Origin: Polyangiales bacterium
GTDB lineage: Bacteria; Myxococcota_A; Polyangia; Polyangiales; Ga0077539
Assembly: GCA_041389885.1 (NCBI GenBank)
Contig: JAWKRB010000006.1
Span: 195,101 to 259,100 of the forward strand
Direction of reading: 5' to 3'
Length of the DNA: 64,000 bases
In this document: positions 6,200 through 63,462 of the stretch, piece after piece
Numbering within the stretch: position 1 is the first letter of the stretch
How the letters are laid out: every line of letters starts with the position of its first letter
The notes under the pieces: model-generated
The model's input: only the letters and a program-made list of their open reading frames with translations
The model's database searches: none
What the model was told of the DNA's origin: nothing
Program-made: the position numbers and the translations under genes

Positions 6200-6526
6200 A
6201 TGGAAGACGCAACACGCCAGCGCATTCAAGACCTCATCGACCAGAACAAGGTCGTGCTCTTCATGAAGGGCACGCGGCACTTTCCGCAGTGCGGCTTCTC
6301 GGGGGCCGTCGTGCAGGTGCTCAACGGGACCGGGGCGAAGTACGAGACCGTGAACGTGCTCGCCGACCCGTCGATCCGCGAGGGCATCAAGGAGTTCGCG
6401 AGCTGGCCCACGATCCCGCAGCTGTACGTGGGGGGAAAGTTCGTGGGCGGCTGCGACATCGTGCGCGAGCTGAGCACCCGCGGAGAGCTCGCCGCGATGC
6501 TCCAGGAGGTCGGCGCGGTCGGGTAG
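6200..6526 (+). CDS. grxD: Monothiol glutaredoxin (Grx4/GrxD family)
   Basis: 108 aa with the CGFS active site ([14 protein letters not shown]) and [19 protein letters not shown]. Confidence 0.9.
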
Positions 6527-14677: not shown

Positions 14678-17011
14678 ATGACGGAGCGGAATGATTCCAG
14701 CGGCGGCGACTCGGGGGCCCCCCCCGCTCGAGAGTTCGAGCAGGGCGACAAGGTCCTCGATCGATGCACGGTAGACCGTTGCGTTCGGCGAGACCGACTC
14801 GCCTCGTTCAACACCGCACGCGGCGACGGACCCGAGGGAGAGGGGCTCTTCACGGTGTGGTCGGTGCACGCCGGCATCGTGCACCGCTCCGAGCGCGCCT
14901 CGACGGTCTTCTTCGATGAGATGGCGTCGACGAGCGCCCTGAACCACGCCTCGATCCCCGCCGTGGTCGCCTTCGACCCCATGGCCCCGGGTCCCGTCGT
15001 CATCGCGCGCTTCGTGCAGGGCGTCTACCTGCGCGACCGCCTCGCGGACGGGGAGCTCCTGAACACGCGCGAGGTCTCTCGCATCGTGCTCGCCGTCGCC
15101 GACGCCCTCGCGGTGCTCCACCGCGCGAGCCCTCCGGTGTTTCACCGCGCGGTCACCCCCGAGCGCGTGCTCAGCGCGGGCGAGACCGTCTTTCTCGAGG
15201 AGTGCGGGTACCTCCACGCCGTCGTCTCCGCGGGCATGCTCAGCGAGAAGGAGCTGGAGACCTTCGCGCAGCCCGGATACCGCCTGCCGAGCCGGGTCTC
15301 CTCCGCGGGCGGCGCGGCGATCGACCGGTTTCAGCTGGCGGTGCTCGCCTTCGAGGCCCTCACCGGGCAGCTGCCCTTCGGCGCCGCGACCGTCGCCGAG
15401 CTCGACGACCTGACCCAGCGCGCGCCCTCGGCCCGCGGCGCGCGGCCGACGCTCCCGGCGGAGATCGACGAGGTCTTTCGCCGCGCCTGGAGCCCCTCGG
15501 CCGCGGACCGCTACGCCACCACCACCGAGTTCGCCGCCGACCTCGCGCGGGTGCTCGAGCCTCGAGACTCGGTGCCCCTCGGCGAGCTGAAGCCCGACGT
15601 CGCCGCGACGATCTTCTCCAGCCCCTCCCAGCGTCCGGAGGTCGCCGACGAGATCGACCGCGCGCTCGACGCGGCGCTGGGCGAGCCCCGCTCGGAGCCC
15701 TCGCCCGCGCAGCGAAAGATCGACGTGGAGCGGCTGCTCCCGATGGTGAGTGCGGCGCTGCAGGCGAACGAGCGCACCTCGTCGGTGCCGCCTGAGCGAC
15801 GCAGCGGCATGGAGCTCCCGCCCCTCTCACGCGCGCTGGACCTGCCGCCGTCGAAGCCCACGCTCCTCGGCGCCGCGACCGGCAGCGCCAAGGGCTCCGC
15901 GCCGTTCAAGATCCGTCCCGCGTCGGTCGCGGCGCCGACGAAGCCCGAAGCCCCACCCCCCGCGGAGGCGCCCGAGCCTGGCTCGCGAGAGAGCCGCCCC
16001 CTCGACCTCACCGAAGAGGCCGAGCTGCAGGAGCGGCAGTCCCAGCTCGAGCTGGCTTCAGACCCGGGCGACCGCTCGGTGGTCGAGCTCGATGAGGCGC
16101 TCCTCGAGCCCTCGACCACGAACACGAACCTCCAGCGGATCATGGATGAGATCGCGTCGTTTCGTCCGTCGGAGCGCTCGCCGATGCTCGAGGAGGAGGA
16201 GCTGATCCGCTTCGGCGATCCCCTCGACGACGGGGTGACCCGCGCGGGACAGGACGAAGAGCTCGTGCGCGGGGAGCTCGCCGGGGCGGGGCGTTCTGGC
16301 GATTCGCCGGCCTCGAGCCCGCCGGTCCACGTGGGGACGATCCGCGCCCCGGTGGCGCCGCCCCAGAGCCTTCAGGCGAAGAAGACACCGCTGCCGCCCC
16401 TGCCTCCGCTCGAAGGCGGCGTCGGTCGGGGTACGCCTCTCTCCTCGATCGCGCCGCTTGGCCGAGGAAAGCCCACCACGCTGCCCCCCGACGACGCGGG
16501 GGATCACCCGGGCTCGGGCGCGCACGAGGTCGTCGTGCCTCGACCTCCCGTCTCGCGGTCGGGCTACGGCAAGGCGGCGGGACTGCCGACGACGACGCCC
16601 CCGCCGACGCGGCTCAACACGCCGATTCCGATGGGCGCGCGACCGGCCCGCCGCTCGGTGCCGCCAGGGACGGTCTCGCGGCCCGCGGCCAGCGCTCCCC
16701 CGGTGGACGAGGCGCCTCGGTCGGAGCCGGCGAAGGTCGAGCAGGCCGTGGCGCTCTCGCGAGAGCCCGACGCGCTCGCGCAGGTGGCGCCGACGGTCGC
16801 CAAGCTCACGGCGCTCGCGTCGCTGATCGCGACGGTGGGGCTGATCTTCGCGGCGCGGCAGCTCGACGCGTACATGGCCGACCCTGGGGTACTCCGTGCG
16901 GGAGCTGCGCGCGGAGCCGCTGCTCCGGCGCCCGACGCGGGCATGGCGGTCGACGATCTCGGCGGGGGCCGTTCCTCGGCGAACGCGACGACGCCTCGGT
17001 CGAGCTCATGA
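14678..17011 (+). CDS. Membrane-anchored Ser/Thr pseudokinase-domain protein with a long Pro-rich disordered region
   Basis: Starts at MTERNDSSGG. Kinase fold with a degenerate catalytic loop (FHRAVTPERVL in place of HRDLKPEN), no DFG motif, and a conserved alpha-F/G region (DRFQLAVLAFEALTGQLPFG). Followed by ~350 aa of P/E/S-rich low complexity and a C-terminal TM segment (VAKLTALASLIATVGLIFAARQL). Confidence 0.7.
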   Translation: MTERNDSSGGDSGAPPAREFEQGDKVLDRCTVDRCVRRDRLASFNTARGDGPEGEGLFTVWSVHAGIVHRSERASTVFFDEMASTSALNHASIPAVVAFDPMAPGPVVIARFVQGVYLRDRLADGELLNTREVSRIVLAVADALAVLHRASPPVFHRAVTPERVLSAGETVFLEECGYLHAVVSAGMLSEKELETFAQPGYRLPSRVSSAGGAAIDRFQLAVLAFEALTGQLPFGAATVAELDDLTQRAPSARGARPTLPAEIDEVFRRAWSPSAADRYATTTEFAADLARVLEPRDSVPLGELKPDVAATIFSSPSQRPEVADEIDRALDAALGEPRSEPSPAQRKIDVERLLPMVSAALQANERTSSVPPERRSGMELPPLSRALDLPPSKPTLLGAATGSAKGSAPFKIRPASVAAPTKPEAPPPAEAPEPGSRESRPLDLTEEAELQERQSQLELASDPGDRSVVELDEALLEPSTTNTNLQRIMDEIASFRPSERSPMLEEEELIRFGDPLDDGVTRAGQDEELVRGELAGAGRSGDSPASSPPVHVGTIRAPVAPPQSLQAKKTPLPPLPPLEGGVGRGTPLSSIAPLGRGKPTTLPPDDAGDHPGSGAHEVVVPRPPVSRSGYGKAAGLPTTTPPPTRLNTPIPMGARPARRSVPPGTVSRPAASAPPVDEAPRSEPAKVEQAVALSREPDALAQVAPTVAKLTALASLIATVGLIFAARQLDAYMADPGVLRAGAARGAAAPAPDAGMAVDDLGGGRSSANATTPRSSS

Positions 17012-17484
17012 CCCCGTCCGTGATCGACGCGGCCACCGCCGACGCGGTCACCGAGGACGCGCCCGCGGACGGGTCGACGCCCGTCGACGCGGCCGTCGGC
17101 GCTGACGTCGTCGAGCTCGCCGACGTCGTCGCGGCCCCCGCGGTCTCGACGCCCCGACGTCCGCCGGTGGCGCCGCCGCCCGCGCCGTCGAACACGCCCG
17201 GCGACGCGGTGCACGCTCGGGTCTGGACGCAGCTCTCGCGACGGATCGCAGACTGCGTCGAGGGCGTCGACAGCCACACGTCGGTGACGGTGCTGGTGCG
17301 CTTCGACGGACCGACGGGGATGGTCCGACGCATTCGCAGCCGCGGGATCTTCGCCGAGCCCCCGATCGGTCCGTGCATCGAGCAGGCGGCGACGGGGATT
17401 CGCGTCGCGCCCTTCGAAGCGCCGACCTGGGACACCACCTTCTCGTTCCCCATCGCGCCGCCCCGGTGGCGCCCGCCGCAATGA
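17008..17484 (+). CDS. Hypothetical protein, translationally coupled to the pseudokinase gene
   Basis: The ATG overlaps the pseudokinase stop (tcATGa). 158 aa with an acidic, low-complexity N-terminus and a C-terminal globular segment. No family recognised. Confidence 0.5.
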   Translation: MTPSVIDAATADAVTEDAPADGSTPVDAAVGADVVELADVVAAPAVSTPRRPPVAPPPAPSNTPGDAVHARVWTQLSRRIADCVEGVDSHTSVTVLVRFDGPTGMVRRIRSRGIFAEPPIGPCIEQAATGIRVAPFEAPTWDTTFSFPIAPPRWRPPQ

Positions 17485-44671: not shown

Positions 44672-46289
44672 TCAGAAGGTTACGAAGGGCGGCGGCTCTG
44701 TCGGCGGCGGCGCCGGGGCAGGGCGAACCGGGGCCGGAGGAGGCTGCGCGACCACCGGCGCGGGGCGCGGCGGCGCGAGCACCACGACCGGCGCAGGGGC
44801 AGGCGCAGGGGCAGGGGGCGGGGCCACGGGCTGGACCGGCGCGGCGGGGACCTGCGCCCGCACGGCTGGGGGCTCTGGCGTCGCCAGCGCGGCTGGGGGG
44901 CTCGTCGGGCGCGGTGCCCCTCCCCGCACGCGGGGCGCGCTCCTCGCGGAGCGCTGCGCGGGTTCGGTGCGGGGGCGCGGCTCGGGGAGGCTCCGGCGGA
45001 GGGGCCAGCGCGGCGGGGGCGGTAACCGGAGCCGCCGGAGGAGCGACCGCCGCGACAGGGGCCGCGGCCGGCGGGGGGACCGGGGCCGCCGCGACGGGCG
45101 AGGAGGCGGCGGCGCGCTCTCTCTGAGGCGTGCGCGGCCAGAGCCAGGCCAGCAGGAGCGCGGCGGGCAGGACCAGGAGCAGGAGCCACGCCCGCTTCGC
45201 GCGCGGCTCCACGCGCGGCGCGGCGGCGGGCGCCTCGGGGGGCCGCGGCGTGAGCGGGATGGGCTCCATCGAGCGCGCGATCGGCCGCGGATCCTGGTCG
45301 AGGGTGACGGCCGGCGGCGTCGCCGAGGCGCGCTGGGCGCTGCTCTCAAAGGGGTCGCTGAAGGCTTCGGCGTCGGGAGGCGGCGGCGTCGAGAGGAAGG
45401 TCGCGGGGTTCACCGCCCGACCGCGGAGCGTCTCGACCACCTCGGGCCTCGCGAGCAGCGCCGCGAGGAGGCCGCGCAGCGTCGCCGCGTCTGCCGGCCG
45501 CTCGTTGGGGTCTTTCTCGAGACAGCGATCGACCAGCGCCGCGAGGTCGGCGTGCAGCCACGGCGCGCGCGTCGCGACCGGCGTGGCGACGTCACGGTTC
45601 GCGCGAATCAGCACCGCGTGCGGCGTGGTGCCGTCGAAGGGAAAGATCCCGCAGACGATCTGGTACATCGTCACGCCCAGCGCGTAGACATCCGCCGCCG
45701 CGCTCACCGAGCGGGCGTCGAGGGCCTGCTCCGGCGCCATGTAGTACACCGTGCCCAGGGCGGTGCCCTCGGTGGTCGCCGTGCGCGAGCCGCGCAGGTC
45801 GCGGGCGACGCCGAAGTCGAGGAGCTTCACCTCTCCGCCGCGGGTCACGAAGACGTTCTCGGGCTTCAGGTCGCGGTGGATCACCCCGACGTCATGCGCC
45901 GCGGCGAGCGGGTCGAGCAGCGCGAGCACCAGCGCCATGGCCCCCGCCTGATCGACCGTGCGCTCGGACAAGAGCGTCGCCATCGAGCGCCCGTCGAGGA
46001 GCTCCATCGCCAGGTACGGCGCGCCGAGCTCGGGGTCGAAGCCGGCGTCGAAGACCTTCACCACCCCCTCGTGCTGAATCCTCGACGCGACGCTCACCTC
46101 GCGCAGGAATCGAGACACGCCCGCGGCGTCTCGCGCGAAGGCGCTCTCGATGATCTTCAGCGCCACCTCCTGCCGGGTCAGGTGGTGGCGGGCCACGTAC
46201 ACCCGGGCCATGCCCCCCGCCGCCAGGTCGCGCACGATCTCGTAGCGCCCCCCCACGAGGTGCGTTGCGGCTTCGGGCGTTTCGCTCAT
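44672..46289 (-). CDS. Ser/Thr protein kinase (active, Hanks-type) with a TM segment and a Pro-rich C-terminal tail; the tail is probably frameshifted
   Basis: Starts MSETPEAATHLVGGRYEIVRDLAAGGMARVY. Contains VALK, HRDLKPENVF, DFG and APE, plus a TM (AWLLLLVLPAALLLAWLW). The Pro/Ala-rich tail continues convincingly only in a different frame that stops at 44672 (...PAPAPAPAPVVVLAPP...PPPFVTF*). The frame shift lies around 44890-44990, near a G6 run. Confidence 0.65.
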
Positions 46290-46372
46290 CGTGACTCTCA
46301 GCGTCGTAGGATGCTCTCCGCGCGCCCTGCGCGGCAAGCGCTCCACACTCTCCAGGGCTGATGCGATCGCGC

Positions 46373-54677: not shown

Positions 54678-55268
54678 GTGAGAACGACCCGTTCTTCCTG
54701 GCTTCAGAACATCGGCTTGATGGCGTCGCTCGCCCTGGCCGTCCTGTCGGCCCCGGCCTCGGCCGACGCGACGGTGGCGGTGGAGCTCCCTCGCGCGCAG
54801 CTCGTATCAGACGCAGACCTCGTGGTGCGGGTGACGGTCCTCGACCACCGCAGCGCGTGGGACGCAGACAACACCGCGATCCGCACCTGGACTCGCCTCA
54901 GGGTCACCGAGTACCTCAAGGGCAGCGGCCCCTCTGAGCTCACCGTGCGGCAGATCGGGGGCGAGGCCGAGGGGCTCGCGCAGTATGTGCCCGGCGACCC
55001 TCGGCTGCGTGAGGGCGCCGACCTCGTGGTCTTTCTCCGCCGCGGAGAAGGCGTGCAGTTCCTCACCGCGATGGCGCAGTCGGTCTTCTACGTCGAGCGC
55101 GGCCCCGACGGCGAGGCCTACGTGCGCCGCGACCTCACGGGCCTGACCTTCGCGAGGGTCTCTCCGACGCGCCCGATGGAGGTGTACGAGCCCGAGAGCG
55201 TCTCGGTGGTCGAGACCCTCGACCAGCTCCGCGCGTCCATCCGACAGGGCGCTGGGGGGGCGCGGTGA
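54678..55268 (+). CDS. Secreted hypothetical protein, translationally coupled to the downstream metalloprotease
   Basis: Signal peptide (MRTTRSSWLQNIGLMASLALAVLSAPASA). 196 aa. The stop overlaps the start of the next gene. Confidence 0.55.
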   Translation: MRTTRSSWLQNIGLMASLALAVLSAPASADATVAVELPRAQLVSDADLVVRVTVLDHRSAWDADNTAIRTWTRLRVTEYLKGSGPSELTVRQIGGEAEGLAQYVPGDPRLREGADLVVFLRRGEGVQFLTAMAQSVFYVERGPDGEAYVRRDLTGLTFARVSPTRPMEVYEPESVSVVETLDQLRASIRQGAGGAR

Positions 55269-56551
55269 GGCCGCGCGCGACCGCCGCCGCGGCGCTCCTC
55301 ACGGCGCTCCTCGCGAACGCCACCGCCGGCGCCTGGGTCTCTCAAGACGCGCAGTGGAACCCCGCGACCCTCCCCATCGGGTACCGCGTCAACGCCGCCA
55401 CCGCGCCCTCGTCGATCGGCGCGTCGGGCGCGCTCGCGGCGATCGACGGTGGCATGGCGAGCTGGGCGGGGCCGACCTGCACGCGCTGGCGCAGCACGAA
55501 CCTCGGCTCGACCTCGGTCACCCGCGCGAGTGCGCGTGACAACGTGAACACCTTCCTCTGGCTCTCGGGCTCGTGGCCCGCGGAGCTCGGGTCGGTGAAC
55601 GTGACGATCGGCGTCACGACGCCGGTGTTCATCCCCGGTCGGTACGTGCTCGACGCCGACATCCAGTTCAACGCCGTGGGCTTCACCTGGAGCACGACGG
55701 GCGCGAGAAACACGGTCGACACGCAGTCGATCGCGACGCACGAGGAGGGGCACTTCCTCGGGCTCGACCATCCCCCGGTGCGCGGCGCGGTGATGTACGC
55801 GTCGTACTCGGGGGGCGTGCTCCGCAACCTCAGCTCCGACGACATCGCCGGCGTGTGCGCGCTCTACCCTTCGGGGGGCGCCGTGCCCGACGCGGGCCCC
55901 CCGGCCGACCCCTGCGCGCGCTTCACCAGCTGCGCGGGGTGTACCCCCAACCAGAACTGCGGCTGGTGCGAGTCCTCGAACTCCTGCCAGACCGGCACCT
56001 CGACCGGATCGACCACCGGCCCCGCCTGCTCAGGCAACTGGCGCTGGGACCCGCGCACCTGCACCGGCGCCACCGACCCCTGCAACGCCTTCACGTCGTG
56101 CTCCTCGTGCACCGCGCAGAACCAGTGCGGGTGGTGCGGCGCGACCAACCGCTGCGTGCTGGGCACGCCGACAGGACCGGCGGCCGGCGGCAGCTGCGGC
56201 GGCTACGCCTGGACCTCGAACATGTGCGCCGCCAGCACCGACGCGGGCGCGCCGACGGGCACGCAGCGCTTCGGCGAGCCGTGTCAGATGCGCGCGGACT
56301 GCGCGTCGGGGCTGCTCTGCGTCGGCGGCAGCGGCGTGTCGCCCTTCTGCACGCGGGTGTGCACCGATGACTGCACGTGTCCGCGCGGCTACGGCTGCGC
56401 CGCGCGCTTGTCGACCGGGCAGACCGTGTGCGTGCCGGGCAACAACGGCTGCGTGACCGGCGTCGACGCCGGCGCGCCGACCGACGTTGTCGTCCCGCGC
56501 GACGTGGTCACCCCCGTGACGTGGTCGCTCCCCGCGACGTGGTCACCCTGA
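55265..56551 (+). CDS. Secreted matrixin-like (metzincin) zinc metalloprotease with two PSI (plexin-repeat) domains; the C-terminal anchor appears frameshifted
   Basis: Signal peptide, HEEGHFLGLDHP (the HExxHxxGxxH motif) and a Met-turn (AVMYASY). Two CxxCxxxxxCGWC modules (CAGCTPNQNCGWCESSNSC; CSSCTAQNQCGWCGATNRC). Confidence 0.85.
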   Translation: MRPRATAAAALLTALLANATAGAWVSQDAQWNPATLPIGYRVNAATAPSSIGASGALAAIDGGMASWAGPTCTRWRSTNLGSTSVTRASARDNVNTFLWLSGSWPAELGSVNVTIGVTTPVFIPGRYVLDADIQFNAVGFTWSTTGARNTVDTQSIATHEEGHFLGLDHPPVRGAVMYASYSGGVLRNLSSDDIAGVCALYPSGGAVPDAGPPADPCARFTSCAGCTPNQNCGWCESSNSCQTGTSTGSTTGPACSGNWRWDPRTCTGATDPCNAFTSCSSCTAQNQCGWCGATNRCVLGTPTGPAAGGSCGGYAWTSNMCAASTDAGAPTGTQRFGEPCQMRADCASGLLCVGGSGVSPFCTRVCTDDCTCPRGYGCAARLSTGQTVCVPGNNGCVTGVDAGAPTDVVVPRDVVTPVTWSLPATWSP

Positions 56552-56570
56552 TGGACGTCGTCGCCGCCCC
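56496..56570 (+). repeat. 17/18/18-bp tandem repeats (GACGTGGTC-containing units) at the 3' end of the metalloprotease gene
   Basis: GACGTGGTC occurs at 56501, 56518 and 56536, with GACGTCGTC at 56554. The first period is 17 nt rather than 18, which moves the reading frame. Confidence 0.6.
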
Positions 56571-56822
56571 GACGCGCCCGCGCCGACGCCCGACGCAGCG
56601 ACTCCCACGGACGACATGGGCAAGGCCGAAGACCTCGGGCCCCTGCCTTTCATCAACCCGGGGTCGACCGGTGGCTGCGGCTGTCGCACGACCTCGACCC
56701 CCTCCGCGCGCGCGGCGGCGTCCTGGCCGCCCTTCTCGCGCTGGGCGTGACGGTTCGTCGACGGCGCCGCCGCTGAATCCCCAAGTGCCTCGCGGCGCCC
56801 CCGGTCGGCGCCGCGGGGTTCC

Positions 56823-58097
56823 TCACCGCCGCCGCCGCCGGGTCCTCACCGCCGCGAGCGCCGCGAGCGCCGCGAAGGGCATGAGCGATCGAGAGGCGCC
56901 GGGGCTCGCGCTGCACGACTTGTACTCGACATAGCCACAGGGCAGCGGCTCTGGGGGGCGGTTCTGCAGGGTGCCGTAGCGGTAGAGCGTGTCGCGCAGG
57001 CCCAGGTCGCTCGCCTGGAGCTGGAGGTCACGGTCGAGGGCGCGGGGGCCGAGCTCGGCGCGGAGCCGCGTGACGTTGGCCTGATCGCCGAGGCCCTCGA
57101 AGGCCTGCTCGGTGTCGTTCGAGACCATCTCCGAGGGGAGGGAGCCGCGCACGCTGGAGATGAGGTTCGACACGGTGAACCGCGAGAGCACCTGCGACGA
57201 CTCCGTGAGCCAGAGCCGCTCGTCGTTGCGCGCGTTCAGCGTGCGAAAGGCGCGCAGAAAGTCGGCCGAGGCGTCGGCGCTGGGGTTGTTGTAGTCGTAG
57301 ACGAGGTCGGCGTCGCGGAGCTCGCCGTTGGGCCAACCCAGGGCCTCCATGCGTGAGGGCGCGAGCACGATCAGGAGCAGGCCGACCTTGTCGCCGACGC
57401 CCGCGGAGATCATGCGCAAGGGCAGCGTCGGCGCCGAGCCGGGGACCGTCACGCGCACCGGCTGCATCTGCGCCACGCCCTCGCCCGCGCGGAGCTTCAG
57501 GGCGACGAAGTCCATGCGCAGCGAGACGTAGTGGTCGAGGATCGGGTCGATGCTGGGCGGCACGAAGTACCCGTTGCTGCGCAGCCAGTCGCGAATGGCG
57601 TTGGGGTCGTCGCCACGGATCGTCGCCTGGTCATAGGGGCCCACGACCTGCTGCTGAAGCACCTGCACGGGGGGCTGGGTGGCGTTGTCTTCGGCCCCCG
57701 CGGCGCGGGACGACGAGGACGCGAAGAGTCCTCCGCCGCCGCTGTCGCAGAAGCGCGTGGGCGGCGGGGGCGCCGGCTGGACCCGCGGGGCCGAGAGGTT
57801 GTCCAGCACGGTCATGAAGCGCGGGTCGGAGAGCTCCACCCGCGCGTTCATCCCGTCGCGAATGGGGAGGATCCAGGTGAACTCCTCGGCGCGTCCCGAG
57901 AAGGCGAACTGGTCCCAGAGGATCGTGCGGCGATCGGAGACCGAGAAGACCATTCGGTGGTCGGTCACCACCTGCACCGCGGTGGGTGAGGGCTGGTGAA
58001 AGCAGCCCCCGCACGCGCGCGCCTCAGAGGCCGACCCCAGCGTCACGCCGAGGACCAGAGAAGAGACCAGCAGACTCCGGAGCGGGATCATTCGCAT
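56823..58097 (-). CDS. Secreted hypothetical protein with a C-terminal Cys/TM/RRRRR (MYXO-CTERM-like) tail
   Basis: Internal start MRMIPLRSLLVSSLVLGVTLGSASEARACGGCFH (signal peptide). C-terminus ...PLPCGYVEYKSCSASPGASRSLMPFAALAALAAVRTRRRRR*. Confidence 0.7.
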   Translation of the reverse strand: MRMIPLRSLLVSSLVLGVTLGSASEARACGGCFHQPSPTAVQVVTDHRMVFSVSDRRTILWDQFAFSGRAEEFTWILPIRDGMNARVELSDPRFMTVLDNLSAPRVQPAPPPPTRFCDSGGGGLFASSSSRAAGAEDNATQPPVQVLQQQVVGPYDQATIRGDDPNAIRDWLRSNGYFVPPSIDPILDHYVSLRMDFVALKLRAGEGVAQMQPVRVTVPGSAPTLPLRMISAGVGDKVGLLLIVLAPSRMEALGWPNGELRDADLVYDYNNPSADASADFLRAFRTLNARNDERLWLTESSQVLSRFTVSNLISSVRGSLPSEMVSNDTEQAFEGLGDQANVTRLRAELGPRALDRDLQLQASDLGLRDTLYRYGTLQNRPPEPLPCGYVEYKSCSASPGASRSLMPFAALAALAAVRTRRRRR

Positions 58098-61223: not shown

Positions 61224-63462
61224 TCAGCGCCGGGTGGGGGGAGGGCGCCCGAGCTCGTACTGCGCCGGCCAGGGCTGCGCGTCCCACAACTGCTGGGCCG
61301 CGGCGTGGAGGGTCCAGAAGGGGTCGGCGAGGTGTGGCCGAGCCAGGGCGCAGAGGTCGGCGCGCCCCGAGGCGACGAGGGTGTTCACCTGGTCGGCGGT
61401 GGTGACCGCGCCCACCGTGATCGTCGGGACGCCGACCTCGTTGCGGATCAGCTCGCTCCAGGGTGCCTGAAACATCCTGCCGTACAAGGGCTTCTGATCG
61501 GCCACGGTCATCCCCGTCGAGACGTCGATCAGGTCGCAGCCAGCGCGCTTGAGCGCGGCGGTGAAGGCGAGGACGTCCTCGTCGGTGATCCCCCCCTCGT
61601 GCCAGTCGGTGGCCGAGACCCGCACCGACATCGGCTTGCGCGCCGGCCACGCCGCGCGCATCGCGGTGAACACCTCCAGGGGGAAGCGCGCGCGCCCCTC
61701 GATGCCTCCGCCGTACTCGTCGCTGCGCGCGTTGGTGAGCGGCGAGAGAAAGCTCCCGAGGAGGTACCCGTGCGCGCAGTGCAGCTCGAGCAGGTCGAAG
61801 CCCGCGTCGTCGGCCAGGCGCGCGGCTCGAACGAAGGCGTCACGCACCGCGTCCATGCCGGCGCGGTCGAGCTCCAGGGGCACAGGCCAGCCCTCGCGGT
61901 AGGCGATGGGGGAGGGGGCCACGAGGGGCCAGGCGCCTTCGGTCAGGGGCGCGCCGCCCTCCCACGGCACCGCCGTCGAGCCCTTGCGCCCCGCGTGGCC
62001 GAGCTGCAGCCCGATCTTCGCGCGGCTGCGCTGGTGCACGAACGAGGTGATCCTCCGCCAGGCCTCGACGTGCTCGGGGCGGTACATCCCCGCGCAGCCC
62101 GGCGTGATGCGCCCCTCGGTACGAGACGTCGGTCATCTCGCACATGACCAGCCCGGCGCCGCCCTGCGCCCTGGCGCCGTAGTGCACGAGGTGAAAATCG
62201 CCCACCGCGCCGTCGACGGCGGAGTACATGCACATGGGAGACACCACCACGCGGTTCTCGAGGGTGAGCTCGCGCAGGCGCAGCGGGGTGAACATCGGCG
62301 GGGTGTCGGGGGTCGCCCCCGCGCGCTCGGCGAACCACGCGCGCACGTCGTCGACCAGGGGCGGGTCGCGCAGGCCGAGGTTCTCGTAGCCGATCTTCTT
62401 CGAGCGCGTGAGCAGCGCGAAGGCGAACTGCTTCGGGTGCATGCCGCGGTGGCGCCGCACGTTCTCGAACCACGTCAGCGAGTCCTGCGCGGCCTTCTGC
62501 ACGCGCTCGGTCATGGGTCGCCGCGCCTCCTCGTAGCGCGCGAGCGCGGCGGGGACGTCCTCGTCGACGCGGAACGCGTCGGCGAGGGCGATGGCGTCTT
62601 CCATCGCGAGCTTGGTGCCGCTGCCGATGGAGAAGTGCGCGGTGTGCACGGCGTCTCCGAGGAGCACGACGTTGCCCGTCGACCAGCGGGCGTTTCGCAC
62701 CGTGGTGAAGCGGCCCCAGGAGGAGCGGTTCTGCAGCAGGGGGTGGCCGTCGAGCCACGGCGCGAAGAGCGCCTCGAGCCAGCGCACGGCGTCGTCGACG
62801 GGCATCTCGTCGAGGCCGGCGTCTCGCCACGACCGCTCGTCGCACTCGACGATGAAGGTCGAGTGGCGGTCGTCGTAGCGGTAGGCGTGGACCTGAAAGA
62901 CCGCGCCCGGCACCGACTCGGGCTCGGCGAAGATGAACGTGAACGCGTCGAAGAGGCGCGTGGTGCCGAGCCAGATGAACATGCACCGGCGCGGGTCGAG
63001 GGAGGGCTGAAACTCCTCGGCCCACGCCGCGCGCACGCCGCTGCGAATCCCGTCTGCGCCCACGAGGAGGTCGCACCGCGCGGCGAGGGCGCGGGGGTCG
63101 GCGACCTCTTCGTCGTAGCGGATCTCGACGCCGAGCTGCTGCGCGCGCTCGACGAGGATGTCGAGGAGCCGGTGCCTCCCGATGCCCGAGAAGCCGTGCC
63201 CGCGCGAGCGGGTGACGACGCCGCGGTCGTGCACGTCGATCTCGTCCCAGTGCGCGAAGTCGCGGGTGATCGCGGCGTGGGTGGGCGCGTCGGCCTCGAA
63301 GAGGTTGCCGAGGGTCTCGTCGCTGAAGACCACGCCCCAGCCGAAGGTCTGAGCGCGCGGGTTGCGCTCGATCAGGGTGATGTCCCAGGTGGGGTGCTCG
63401 CGCTTCGCGAGGATGGCGAAATACAAACCCGCGGGACCCGCTCCGACGCCCGTTACCTTCAC
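61224..63462 (-). pseudogene. FAD-dependent monooxygenase / Old-Yellow-Enzyme fusion (salicylyl-CoA 5-hydroxylase/oxidoreductase-like) interrupted by a single-base frameshift near 62120
   Basis: ORF 61840..63462 encodes a FAD monooxygenase ([19 protein letters not shown]...[22 protein letters not shown]) and the start of an OYE domain ([26 protein letters not shown]...[24 protein letters not shown]). The OYE continues in another frame as [23 protein letters not shown]...HCAHGYLL (ORF 61224..62087). One extra nucleotide in tcgTaccgag joins the two. Confidence 0.7.

What the first reader, a model, noticed from the sequence alone, without database searches (positions are those of the whole stretch)
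56490..56780. Metalloprotease C-terminus: MYXO-CTERM-like sorting tail split across three reading frames around a 17/18-bp tandem repeat
The matrixin-PSI protease ORF stops at 56551 (...PRDVVTPVTWSLPATWSP*). Downstream, three partial frames read like protein. One gives DVVAPRDVVTLMDVVAAP. The second gives PDAPAPTPDAATPTDDMGKAEDLGPLPFINPGSTGGCGC (56568-56690). The third, which is the original protease frame, gives GGVLAALLALGVTVRRRRRR* (56711-56776). GC + TM helix + Arg cluster is the signature of the myxobacterial C-terminal sorting domain (MYXO-CTERM / GC_trans_RRR). The frame first changes inside GACGTGGTC tandem repeats whose first period is 17 rather than 18 nt. The three shifts are each -1 and sum to 0. 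This could be real slipped-strand variation or pseudogenisation of the anchor, which would convert a cell-surface protease into a released one. It could also be sequencing errors in a repetitive GC-rich stretch.
Basis: partly seen in the sequence, partly recalled or inferred. Interest (0 to 1): 0.65.

Follow-up and report, generated by a model that had tools for sequence, protein, structure and literature searches.

The report
Frameshifted sorting tail, probably assembly error
A myxobacterial surface-protease gene has its normal membrane-anchoring tail broken into three reading frames by three missing bases, and the evidence points to consensus errors in this metagenome-assembled genome rather than to biology.

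Summary
The matrixin/PSI protease ORF (55265-56551) stops at TGA 56549-51. Its natural C-terminus continues downstream in frames 1, 0 and then 2 again. Adding one base at each of three sites gives a 504-aa protein ending GGCGC-TM-RRRRRR*. This protein passes the MYXO-CTERM model TIGR03901 and is colinear with every complete orthologue but one. The split itself is most likely (about 0.75) an assembly or consensus artefact, for four reasons. (1) The window comes from a MAG and contains at least two more frameshifts in conserved genes, one at a G5 run. (2) The one other orthologous locus with a broken tail is a MAG whose protein accession is close to the window's. There, an independent short-read contig (99% identical) has C5 instead of C4, its only indel, and an intact tail. 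(3) Three same-direction 1-nt deficits lie within about 200 nt, with no other decay. The second and third cannot be compensatory, because the stop comes before them. (4) All 24 other complete loci from other projects are intact. Real anchor loss, giving a released protease, remains possible (about 0.2). Only the reads can settle it. Interest is low.

The parts
55265..56551 (+). Protease ORF as deposited (428 aa; identical to NCBI MEZ4390074.1, 'MAG: matrixin family metalloprotease [Polyangiales bacterium]'). It has a signal peptide, a matrixin domain with HEEGHFLGLDH, two PSI/Cys-rich modules and the start of the DVV-PR linker. It ends at a premature TGA.
55265..56776 (+). Full reconstructed coding region. 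It gives 504 aa after adding one base at each of three sites and ends RRRRRR* at 56774-76.
56483..56571 (+). Five 18-nt tandem units (GACGTnGTC...; DVVxPR linker) starting at 56483, 56501, 56518, 56536 and 56554. The second unit is 17 nt long.
56511..56517 (+). Shift 1 (frame 2->1). The third base of the Pro codon in ACC-CC_-CGT is missing, inside or next to a C5 run. Repair gives DVVTPR, as in orthologue P0003.
56549..56551 (+). Premature TGA, reached 34 nt after shift 1. Translation of the deposited sequence ends here whatever lies downstream.
56567..56571 (+). Shift 2 (frame 1->0). The third base of a Pro codon is missing at a C4 run (GCC GCC CC_ GAC).
56698..56722 (+). Interval containing shift 3 (frame 0->2). 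The missing base lies either in the C5 run 56698-702 (tail scores 29.3 bits) or, more likely, in GCGGCGGCG (tail ...STPSARAGGVLAALL..., 34.9 bits).
56670..56776 (+). MYXO-CTERM sorting domain (GGCGC, a short S/T/P spacer, hydrophobic helix VLAALLALGVTV, RRRRRR, stop). It is split by shift 3.
54678..55268 (+). Conserved 196-aa secreted partner ORF. Its stop overlaps the protease start by 4 nt. It is present upstream of the protease in the close relatives examined.
56823..58091 (-). Convergent DUF2330 gene with an intact MYXO-CTERM-like tail that scores below threshold (C...AALAALAAVRTRRRRR*; 17 bits). It is a syntenic neighbour in relatives.
16964..16968 (+). Unrelated control. A G5 run where the kinase-like gene 14678-17484 is frameshifted by -1. 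As deposited it is 777 aa (R3A48_02995). Repaired it is 935 aa and colinear with 937-977-aa orthologues.
62089..62120 (-). Unrelated control. The FAD_binding_3/Oxidored_FMN gene (744 aa in relatives) is split into two frames at TCGTACCGAG, by one extra nt or two missing nt. There is no homopolymer here.

Best explanation
The gene is an ordinary myxosortase-substrate-type surface protease: Sec signal peptide, matrixin (M10) catalytic domain, two PSI/Cys-rich modules, a disordered DVV-PR/DAG linker and a MYXO-CTERM tail. In the organism it is most probably one 504-aa ORF. The three reading-frame changes at about 56515, about 56570 and 56698-56722 are most probably single-base undercalls in the consensus of this metagenome-assembled genome. 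They cluster in a GC-rich, repeat-containing linker that varies in length between orthologues. How the intact protein would work is inferred from the family and was not tested here. It would be exported by Sec and held in the inner membrane by the tail's TM helix. [quoted passage not shown] This is the model of Guo, Haft and Wall 2025 (PMC11980579).
For: (a) Repair with three single bases gives an ORF that ends exactly where orthologues end. It passes TIGR03901 (23.3 bits for the whole protein; 29.3 or 34.9 for the tail; cut-off 20).
(b) Eleven close homologues have linker + GCGC + TM + RRRR in one frame. So do 24 of the 26 complete orthologous loci among GTDB species representatives; the 27th locus runs off its contig.
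(c) Of the two complete loci without an uninterrupted tail, one is the window. The other is L018 (MAG ABC2.122). That makes 2 of 2 broken in that batch against 0 of 24 elsewhere.
(d) In L018 the defect is C4 where an independent Logan short-read contig has C5. That contig (L084) is 99.0% identical over 1614 nt, this is the only indel, and the protein is intact at 529 aa. The MAG's out-of-frame tail is identical in amino acids to the intact one.
(e) The window carries at least two more frameshifts in conserved genes. One is a -1 shift at a G5 run in a kinase-like gene; after repair, orthologues cover 100% of the protein. The other splits an FAD/OYE oxidoreductase. Three of roughly 55 genes are broken.
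(f) Once shift 1 creates the stop at 56549, shifts 2 and 3 have no selective meaning. Yet all three are 1-nt deficits and they sum to zero. The shifted segments keep coding-type GC3 (0.94, 0.86, 0.79) and the motifs FINP..GGCGC. Real neutral decay should bring many substitutions for every indel.
Against: No reads, coverage data or sequencing platform are available, so the error is inferred and not seen. The window's G/C homopolymer-length spectrum looks normal compared with 50 related loci, so there is no global homopolymer compression. The oxidoreductase shift is not at a homopolymer, and shift 3 probably is not either. Three errors within 200 nt is far more clustered than the window-wide rate of about 1 per 13 kb, so a local cause must be assumed, such as low coverage or strain heterogeneity in the linker. 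In L018 the 8 kb around the protease is otherwise free of frameshifts, so the tail is hit preferentially in both MAGs. The Logan contig is from a 99%-identical strain, not the same one. That the two MAGs share a project is inferred only from neighbouring accession numbers.
Confidence: 0.75

Rival explanations
1. Real, very recent loss of the anchor. The population truly carries the frameshifts, so the protease is made as a 428-aa protein without the lipidation Cys, TM helix or Arg cluster. It would be released or periplasmic instead of tethered to the surface.
For: The sequence as deposited says so, and NCBI annotates a 428-aa product. A second Polyangiales MAG has an independent -1 shift in the tail of the orthologous gene, while its neighbours over 8 kb are intact. 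This could reflect recurrent selection for release. The homopolymer spectrum gives no sign of a crude long-read assembly.
Against: This needs three independent 1-nt deletions within 200 nt and no accompanying substitutions. The second and third would occur after the stop and still net to zero. The tail still scores 29-35 bits. The defect tracks the accession batch (2 of 2 against 0 of 24), not phylogeny, since the two proteins are only about 52% identical. The window has other broken conserved genes, which fits errors better than a free-living large-genome bacterium rich in pseudogenes.
Confidence: 0.19
2. Phase-variable anchoring. Short G/C tracts in the tail slip at high frequency, so the population mixes anchored and released forms, and the consensus caught an 'off' state.
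For: Shifts 1 and 2 and the L018 shift sit at C4-C5 runs. Two MAGs are affected in the same gene region.
Against: Known contingency tracts are much longer (roughly 7 or more repeat units; from general knowledge) than these 4-5-nt runs. Three simultaneous 'off' events are not how a switch works, because one suffices. The other 24 complete loci show no variation. Population heterogeneity cannot be tested here.
Confidence: 0.04
3. The deposited sequence is correct and is decoded by three programmed -1 ribosomal frameshifts.
For: Only that all three shifts go in the same -1 direction.
Against: By inspection, no site has an X XXY YYZ slippery heptamer. Orthologues encode the same peptide in one frame. 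A triple frameshift has no precedent that I know of.
Confidence: 0.01

Closest known systems
MYXO-CTERM sorting domain (NCBIfam TIGR03901), processed by myxosortase MrtX/MrtC. The prototype substrate is TraA of Myxococcus xanthus (Haft 2023 preprint 10.1101/2023.06.07.544157; Guo, Haft and Wall 2025, PMC11980579).
   Same: It has the same three-part design: a GCGC motif with the invariant Cys, a hydrophobic helix without Pro or charged residues, and an Arg cluster at the extreme C-terminus. It follows a disordered linker, sits in a secreted protein and occurs in a Polyangiales genome. The HMM score is above the cut-off after repair.
   Different: In the deposited DNA the domain is not in frame with the protein and is itself split between two frames. 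No single frame reaches the cut-off; the frame-0 piece scores 15.8 bits.
Myxosortase-dependent metalloprotease, MXAN_2677/MXAN_2678 family (NCBIfam NF041905).
   Same: It is a zinc metalloprotease with a MYXO-CTERM tail from Myxococcota. There is a partial HMM match over the catalytic core (residues 113-227).
   Different: It scores 58.6 bits against a cut-off of 250, so it is not a member of that equivalog. This protein has two PSI modules and an extra Cys-rich module, and it belongs to a separate clade with a conserved upstream partner ORF and a DUF2330 neighbour.
GlyGly-CTERM/rhombosortase substrates such as the Vibrio cholerae protease VesB.
   Same: It is a secreted protease carrying a C-terminal three-part sorting tag. 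According to the discussion in PMC11980579, loss or mis-processing of that tag turns a surface-tethered enzyme into a released one.
   Different: The signature motif, the sorting protease and the lineage are all different. This is an analogy only.

Membership tests
MYXO-CTERM sorting domain (TIGR03901) | HMM score at or above the curated cut-off (20 bits) | tested here: inconclusive
   Met only after conceptual repair: 23.3 bits for the whole 504-aa protein and 29.3 or 34.9 bits for the tail. In the deposited sequence the end of the annotated ORF has no hit, and the frame-0 piece scores 15.8 bits, below 20.
MYXO-CTERM sorting domain (TIGR03901) | Signature motif with an invariant Cys (often GCGC), then a TM helix free of Pro and charged residues, then an Arg-rich extreme C-terminus | tested here: met
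   All three elements are present in the right order and spacing on the DNA (GGCGC 56670-84; VLAALLALGVTV; RRRRRR* ending at 56776), although a frame change separates them. The feature list is from 10.1101/2023.06.07.544157.
MYXO-CTERM sorting domain (TIGR03901) | Host belongs to Myxococcota and encodes a cognate myxosortase (MrtX/MrtC) | not tested
   The lineage is supported by NCBI's name for the identical protein (Polyangiales bacterium) and by the relatives found. I did not look for a myxosortase gene. Only 64 kb of the genome is available.
MYXO-CTERM sorting domain (TIGR03901) | Lipidation of the Cys, cleavage by myxosortase and display on the surface through the T2SS | not testable with these tools
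   This is an experimental property, taken from PMC11980579.
Matrixin / Peptidase_M10 (PF00413) | Pfam score above the gathering threshold and the HExxHxxGxxH zinc motif with a downstream Met-turn | tested here: met
   47.3 bits against 24. HEEGHFLGLDH and AVMYASY are invariant across orthologues.
PSI / plexin repeat (PF01437) | Pfam score above the gathering threshold | tested here: met
   29.4 bits against 23.1, in two stretches.
MXAN_2677/MXAN_2678 myxosortase-dependent metalloprotease (NF041905) | Equivalog HMM score at or above 250 bits | tested here: not met
   58.6 bits, over the catalytic core only.
Phase-variable contingency locus | A long simple-sequence tract and length heterogeneity within the population | tested here: not met
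   The tracts are only 4-5 nt long. Heterogeneity cannot be tested without reads.
Programmed -1 ribosomal frameshift | A slippery X XXY YYZ heptamer at the shift, and conservation of the two-frame arrangement in relatives | tested here: not met
   No such heptamer is present at the three sites. The other 24 complete orthologous loci use one frame.

The most novel reading that the evidence does not exclude
The frameshifts are real and recurrent. In two distantly related Polyangiales populations with neighbouring accession numbers (probably one study), short C/G tracts in the linker and MYXO-CTERM region of the same protease family have independently slipped. This uncouples the enzyme from its lipid anchor and would be a cheap genetic route, possibly selected or reversible, from a cell-bound to a released, public-good protease.
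Probability: 0.05. Interest if true: 0.55.

Novelty: not a real feature. Interest (0 to 1): 0.12.

Why it matters
If the split is an artefact, as I think, the practical lesson concerns annotation. MEZ4390074.1 (428 aa) and the kinase-like R3A48_02995 (777 aa) are truncated models, and the window's oxidoreductase gene is split as well. Counts of MYXO-CTERM clients or pseudogenes from this MAG and MAGs like it will be biased. If the split is real, it would be a natural example of a surface-anchored myxobacterial protease converted into a released one by loss of its sorting tag. That bears on how predatory or social Myxococcota divide private from public extracellular enzymes. Even then it would be a single pseudogenised tail of a well-known domain.

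Tried and rejected
1. Looking for the same population in an independent assembly failed. Exact look-ups of the ORF found no contig on record. A degenerate-codon DNA scan of JGI metagenome contigs for the tail peptide found nothing. The GTDB representative scan did not contain the source MAG.
2. A homopolymer-length spectrum of the window against 50 related loci, meant to detect long-read compression, showed no deficit and was uninformative.
3. DNA alignment with L001 and L002 to pin down the indels failed, because the linker is too variable in length.
4. GC3 and codon-usage Viterbi frame maps of the whole window flagged further candidates. Those at 6525, 22700, 26598, 28770, 30450 and 46775 proved to be separate genes or alternative starts when I read their translations. 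The candidate at about 45100 remains unresolved.
5. A literature search for the MAG series name (STL-MYX) found nothing, so the sequencing platform is unknown.
6. Slippage of the 18-nt repeat as the cause of shift 1 is unnecessary. The deficit is one base in a Pro codon, not a repeat unit.
7. Programmed frameshifting and classic phase variation were considered and rejected (see the rival explanations).

Full report
**Observation**

The window has 72.8% G+C. The ORF 55265-56551 (+) encodes a 428-aa protein that ends ...PRDVVTPVTWSLPATWSP*, with TGA at 56549-51. Downstream, frame 1 reads DVVAPRDVVTLMDVVAAP (56518-71). Frame 0 reads PDAPAP...FINPGSTGGCGC (56568-56684). The original frame 2 reads GGVLAALLALGVTVRRRRRR* (56714-76).

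An 18-nt tandem array covers 56482-56548 (Tandem Repeats Finder score 81). Its units start at 56483, 56501, 56518, 56536 and 56554, so exactly one period is 17 nt. The frame order 2->1->0->2 means three 1-nt deficits.

**What the sequence encodes**

Adding one base at each of three places gives a 504-aa ORF. Pfam finds Peptidase_M10 (47.3 bits) and two PSI stretches (29.4 bits). NCBIfam finds MYXO-CTERM TIGR03901 at 23.3 bits for the whole protein and 29.3 bits for the tail alone, against a cut-off of 20.

If the third base is restored in GCGGCGGCG instead of the C5 run, the tail reads ...RTTSTPSARAGGVLAALL... and scores 34.9 bits. The third shift is therefore only bounded to 56698-56722. The match to the myxosortase-dependent metalloprotease equivalog NF041905 is partial (58.6 bits against 250), so the protein is related to that family but not a member.

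**Relatives**

The deposited 428-aa protein is identical to NCBI MEZ4390074.1, 'MAG: matrixin family metalloprotease [Polyangiales bacterium]', on a 356,633-bp contig. The window is therefore from a metagenome-assembled genome.

The next relatives are 73-74% identical and 513-518 aa long. In an alignment of 11 homologues, every full-length sequence carries a DVV/PRD-type linker, GCGC, a hydrophobic helix and RRRR in one frame. The repaired window protein aligns with them through all three frame segments, for example FINPGSTGGCGCRT against FINPNATSGCGCRT.

Synteny is conserved in the close relatives examined: a small secreted ORF, then the protease with a 4-nt overlap, then a convergent DUF2330 gene, then an H+-pyrophosphatase.

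Among 27 orthologous loci from GTDB species representatives, one runs off its contig. Of the 26 complete loci, 25 have the tail uninterrupted.

**The exception is informative**

L018 is contig JAWKRC010000027.1 of MAG 'ABC2.122'. Its protease ends GCGCRTGSSPPRAARAR*, and the rest of the tail (ASGRSGALMALAAVGLALSSRRRRR*) sits in the -1 frame. Its protein accession MEZ4408740.1 lies about 18,700 from the window's.

The 90%-identity cluster of that protein contains three full-length proteins of 528-529 aa from independent Logan assemblies. The closest contig, L084 from SRR28338165, is 99.0% identical to L018 over 1614 nt. The only indel between them is C5 in L084 against C4 in the MAG, exactly at the frameshift.

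So a broken tail occurs in 2 of 2 loci from that accession batch and in 0 of 24 complete loci elsewhere. The two affected proteins are only about 52% identical to each other. The defect follows the data source, not the lineage.

**Other frameshifts in the window**

- Proteins from L001 and L002 hit the window's FAD_binding_3/Oxidored_FMN gene in two frames that meet at 62089-62120. The orthologue reads [20 protein letters not shown]. The window reads CEMTDVS, then changes frame, then [12 protein letters not shown], with 7 nt where 6 are expected.
- A kinase-like gene is annotated as 777 aa (R3A48_02995). It continues in the -1 frame. Adding one G to the G5 run at 16964-68 gives 935 aa. Orthologues of 937-977 aa (83% to 48% identity) then cover 100% of it, including a strongly conserved C-terminal domain ending PIAPPRWRPPQ.
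- A third candidate, the 3' end of a Ser/Thr kinase near 45100, was not verified.
- A codon-usage Viterbi map found no further clear cases.

At least five frame-breaking indels therefore lie in 64 kb, and they affect 3 of roughly 55 genes.

**Artefact or biology**

The arguments for an artefact are these.

- The association with accession batch, and the direct contradiction by an independent assembly in the related MAG.
- The presence of other broken conserved genes in the same window.
- The internal logic of the site. Shift 1 creates a stop 34 nt later, so shifts 2 and 3 are invisible to selection. Yet they are again single-base deficits, and together they restore the original frame exactly.
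- The lack of decay. The shifted segments keep coding-type GC3 (0.94, 0.86, 0.79) and family motifs, and the tail still scores 29-35 bits. Real decay after inactivation should bring many substitutions for each indel.

The arguments against are these.

- I have no reads and do not know the platform.
- The homopolymer spectrum is normal.
- One, and probably two, of the five indels are not at homopolymers.
- Three events in 200 nt are far more clustered than the window-wide rate, and in L018 the surrounding 8 kb is clean.

A local cause is therefore required. Poor consensus in a GC-rich, repeat-bearing linker that varies in length between orthologues is plausible but unproven.

I put about 0.75 on artefact, about 0.19 on a real recent loss of the anchor, about 0.04 on tract-mediated population heterogeneity and about 0.01 on programmed frameshifting.

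**Mechanism of the intact protein**

This is inferred from the family. MYXO-CTERM has a signature with an invariant Cys, a TM helix and an Arg cluster (10.1101/2023.06.07.544157). In the current model, proteins are exported by Sec and held in the inner membrane by the tail helix. [quoted passage not shown]

The deposited 428-aa product would lack the Cys, the helix and the Arg cluster. If it is real, it would not be tethered.

**Verdict**

The frame split is most likely not a feature of the organism. The underlying gene is an ordinary new member of a known kind, a MYXO-CTERM-tagged matrixin. Interest is low.

Noticed in passing
window 14678-17484 (+), shift at G5 run 16964-16968: The kinase-like gene is annotated as a 777-aa hypothetical protein (R3A48_02995) and is frameshifted by -1. 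The repaired 935-aa protein is colinear with 937-977-aa orthologues. It carries a highly conserved C-terminal domain of about 100 aa, outside the membrane, ending PIAPPRWRPPQ, whose function is unknown.
   Followed up: yes
window 61230-63462 (-), junction 62089-62120: The fused FAD_binding_3 + Oxidored_FMN (OYE-like) gene, 744 aa in L001 and L002, is split into two frames at TCGTACCGAG by one extra nt or two missing nt. There is no homopolymer at this site.
   Followed up: yes
window 44672-45140 (-): The Pro/Ala-rich 3' end of a Ser/Thr kinase (gene start near 46290) may also be frameshifted. The annotated frame runs about 290 nt into the next gene. The -1 frame ends ...PPPFVTF* just before that gene's start.
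   Followed up: partly
window 54678-55268 (+): A conserved 185-196-aa secreted ORF always sits immediately upstream of this protease clade, and its stop overlaps the protease start by 4 nt (L001, L002, L003, L085). It has no NCBIfam hit. It could be a dedicated partner, inhibitor or chaperone of the protease.
   Followed up: partly
window 56823-58091 (-): The convergent DUF2330 protein has a MYXO-CTERM-like tail of its own (C...AALAALAAVRTRRRRR*) that scores 17 bits, just under the cut-off of 20. Its AAL repeats produce the 9-nt and 23-nt tandem repeats at 56809-56875. DUF2330 is a syntenic neighbour in close relatives.
   Followed up: partly
window 56777-56822: The 46-nt spacer between the two convergent tail-encoding genes contains a GC-rich inverted repeat (GCGGCGCC-N7-GGCGCCGC). 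It may be a bidirectional terminator.
   Followed up: no
L018 6925-6990 (JAWKRC010000027.1, MAG ABC2.122): The orthologous protease in a MAG with a nearby protein accession has a single -1 shift just after GCGC (C4 against C5 in Logan contig L084). Its deposited protein MEZ4408740.1 (511 aa) is therefore also a truncated model.
   Followed up: yes
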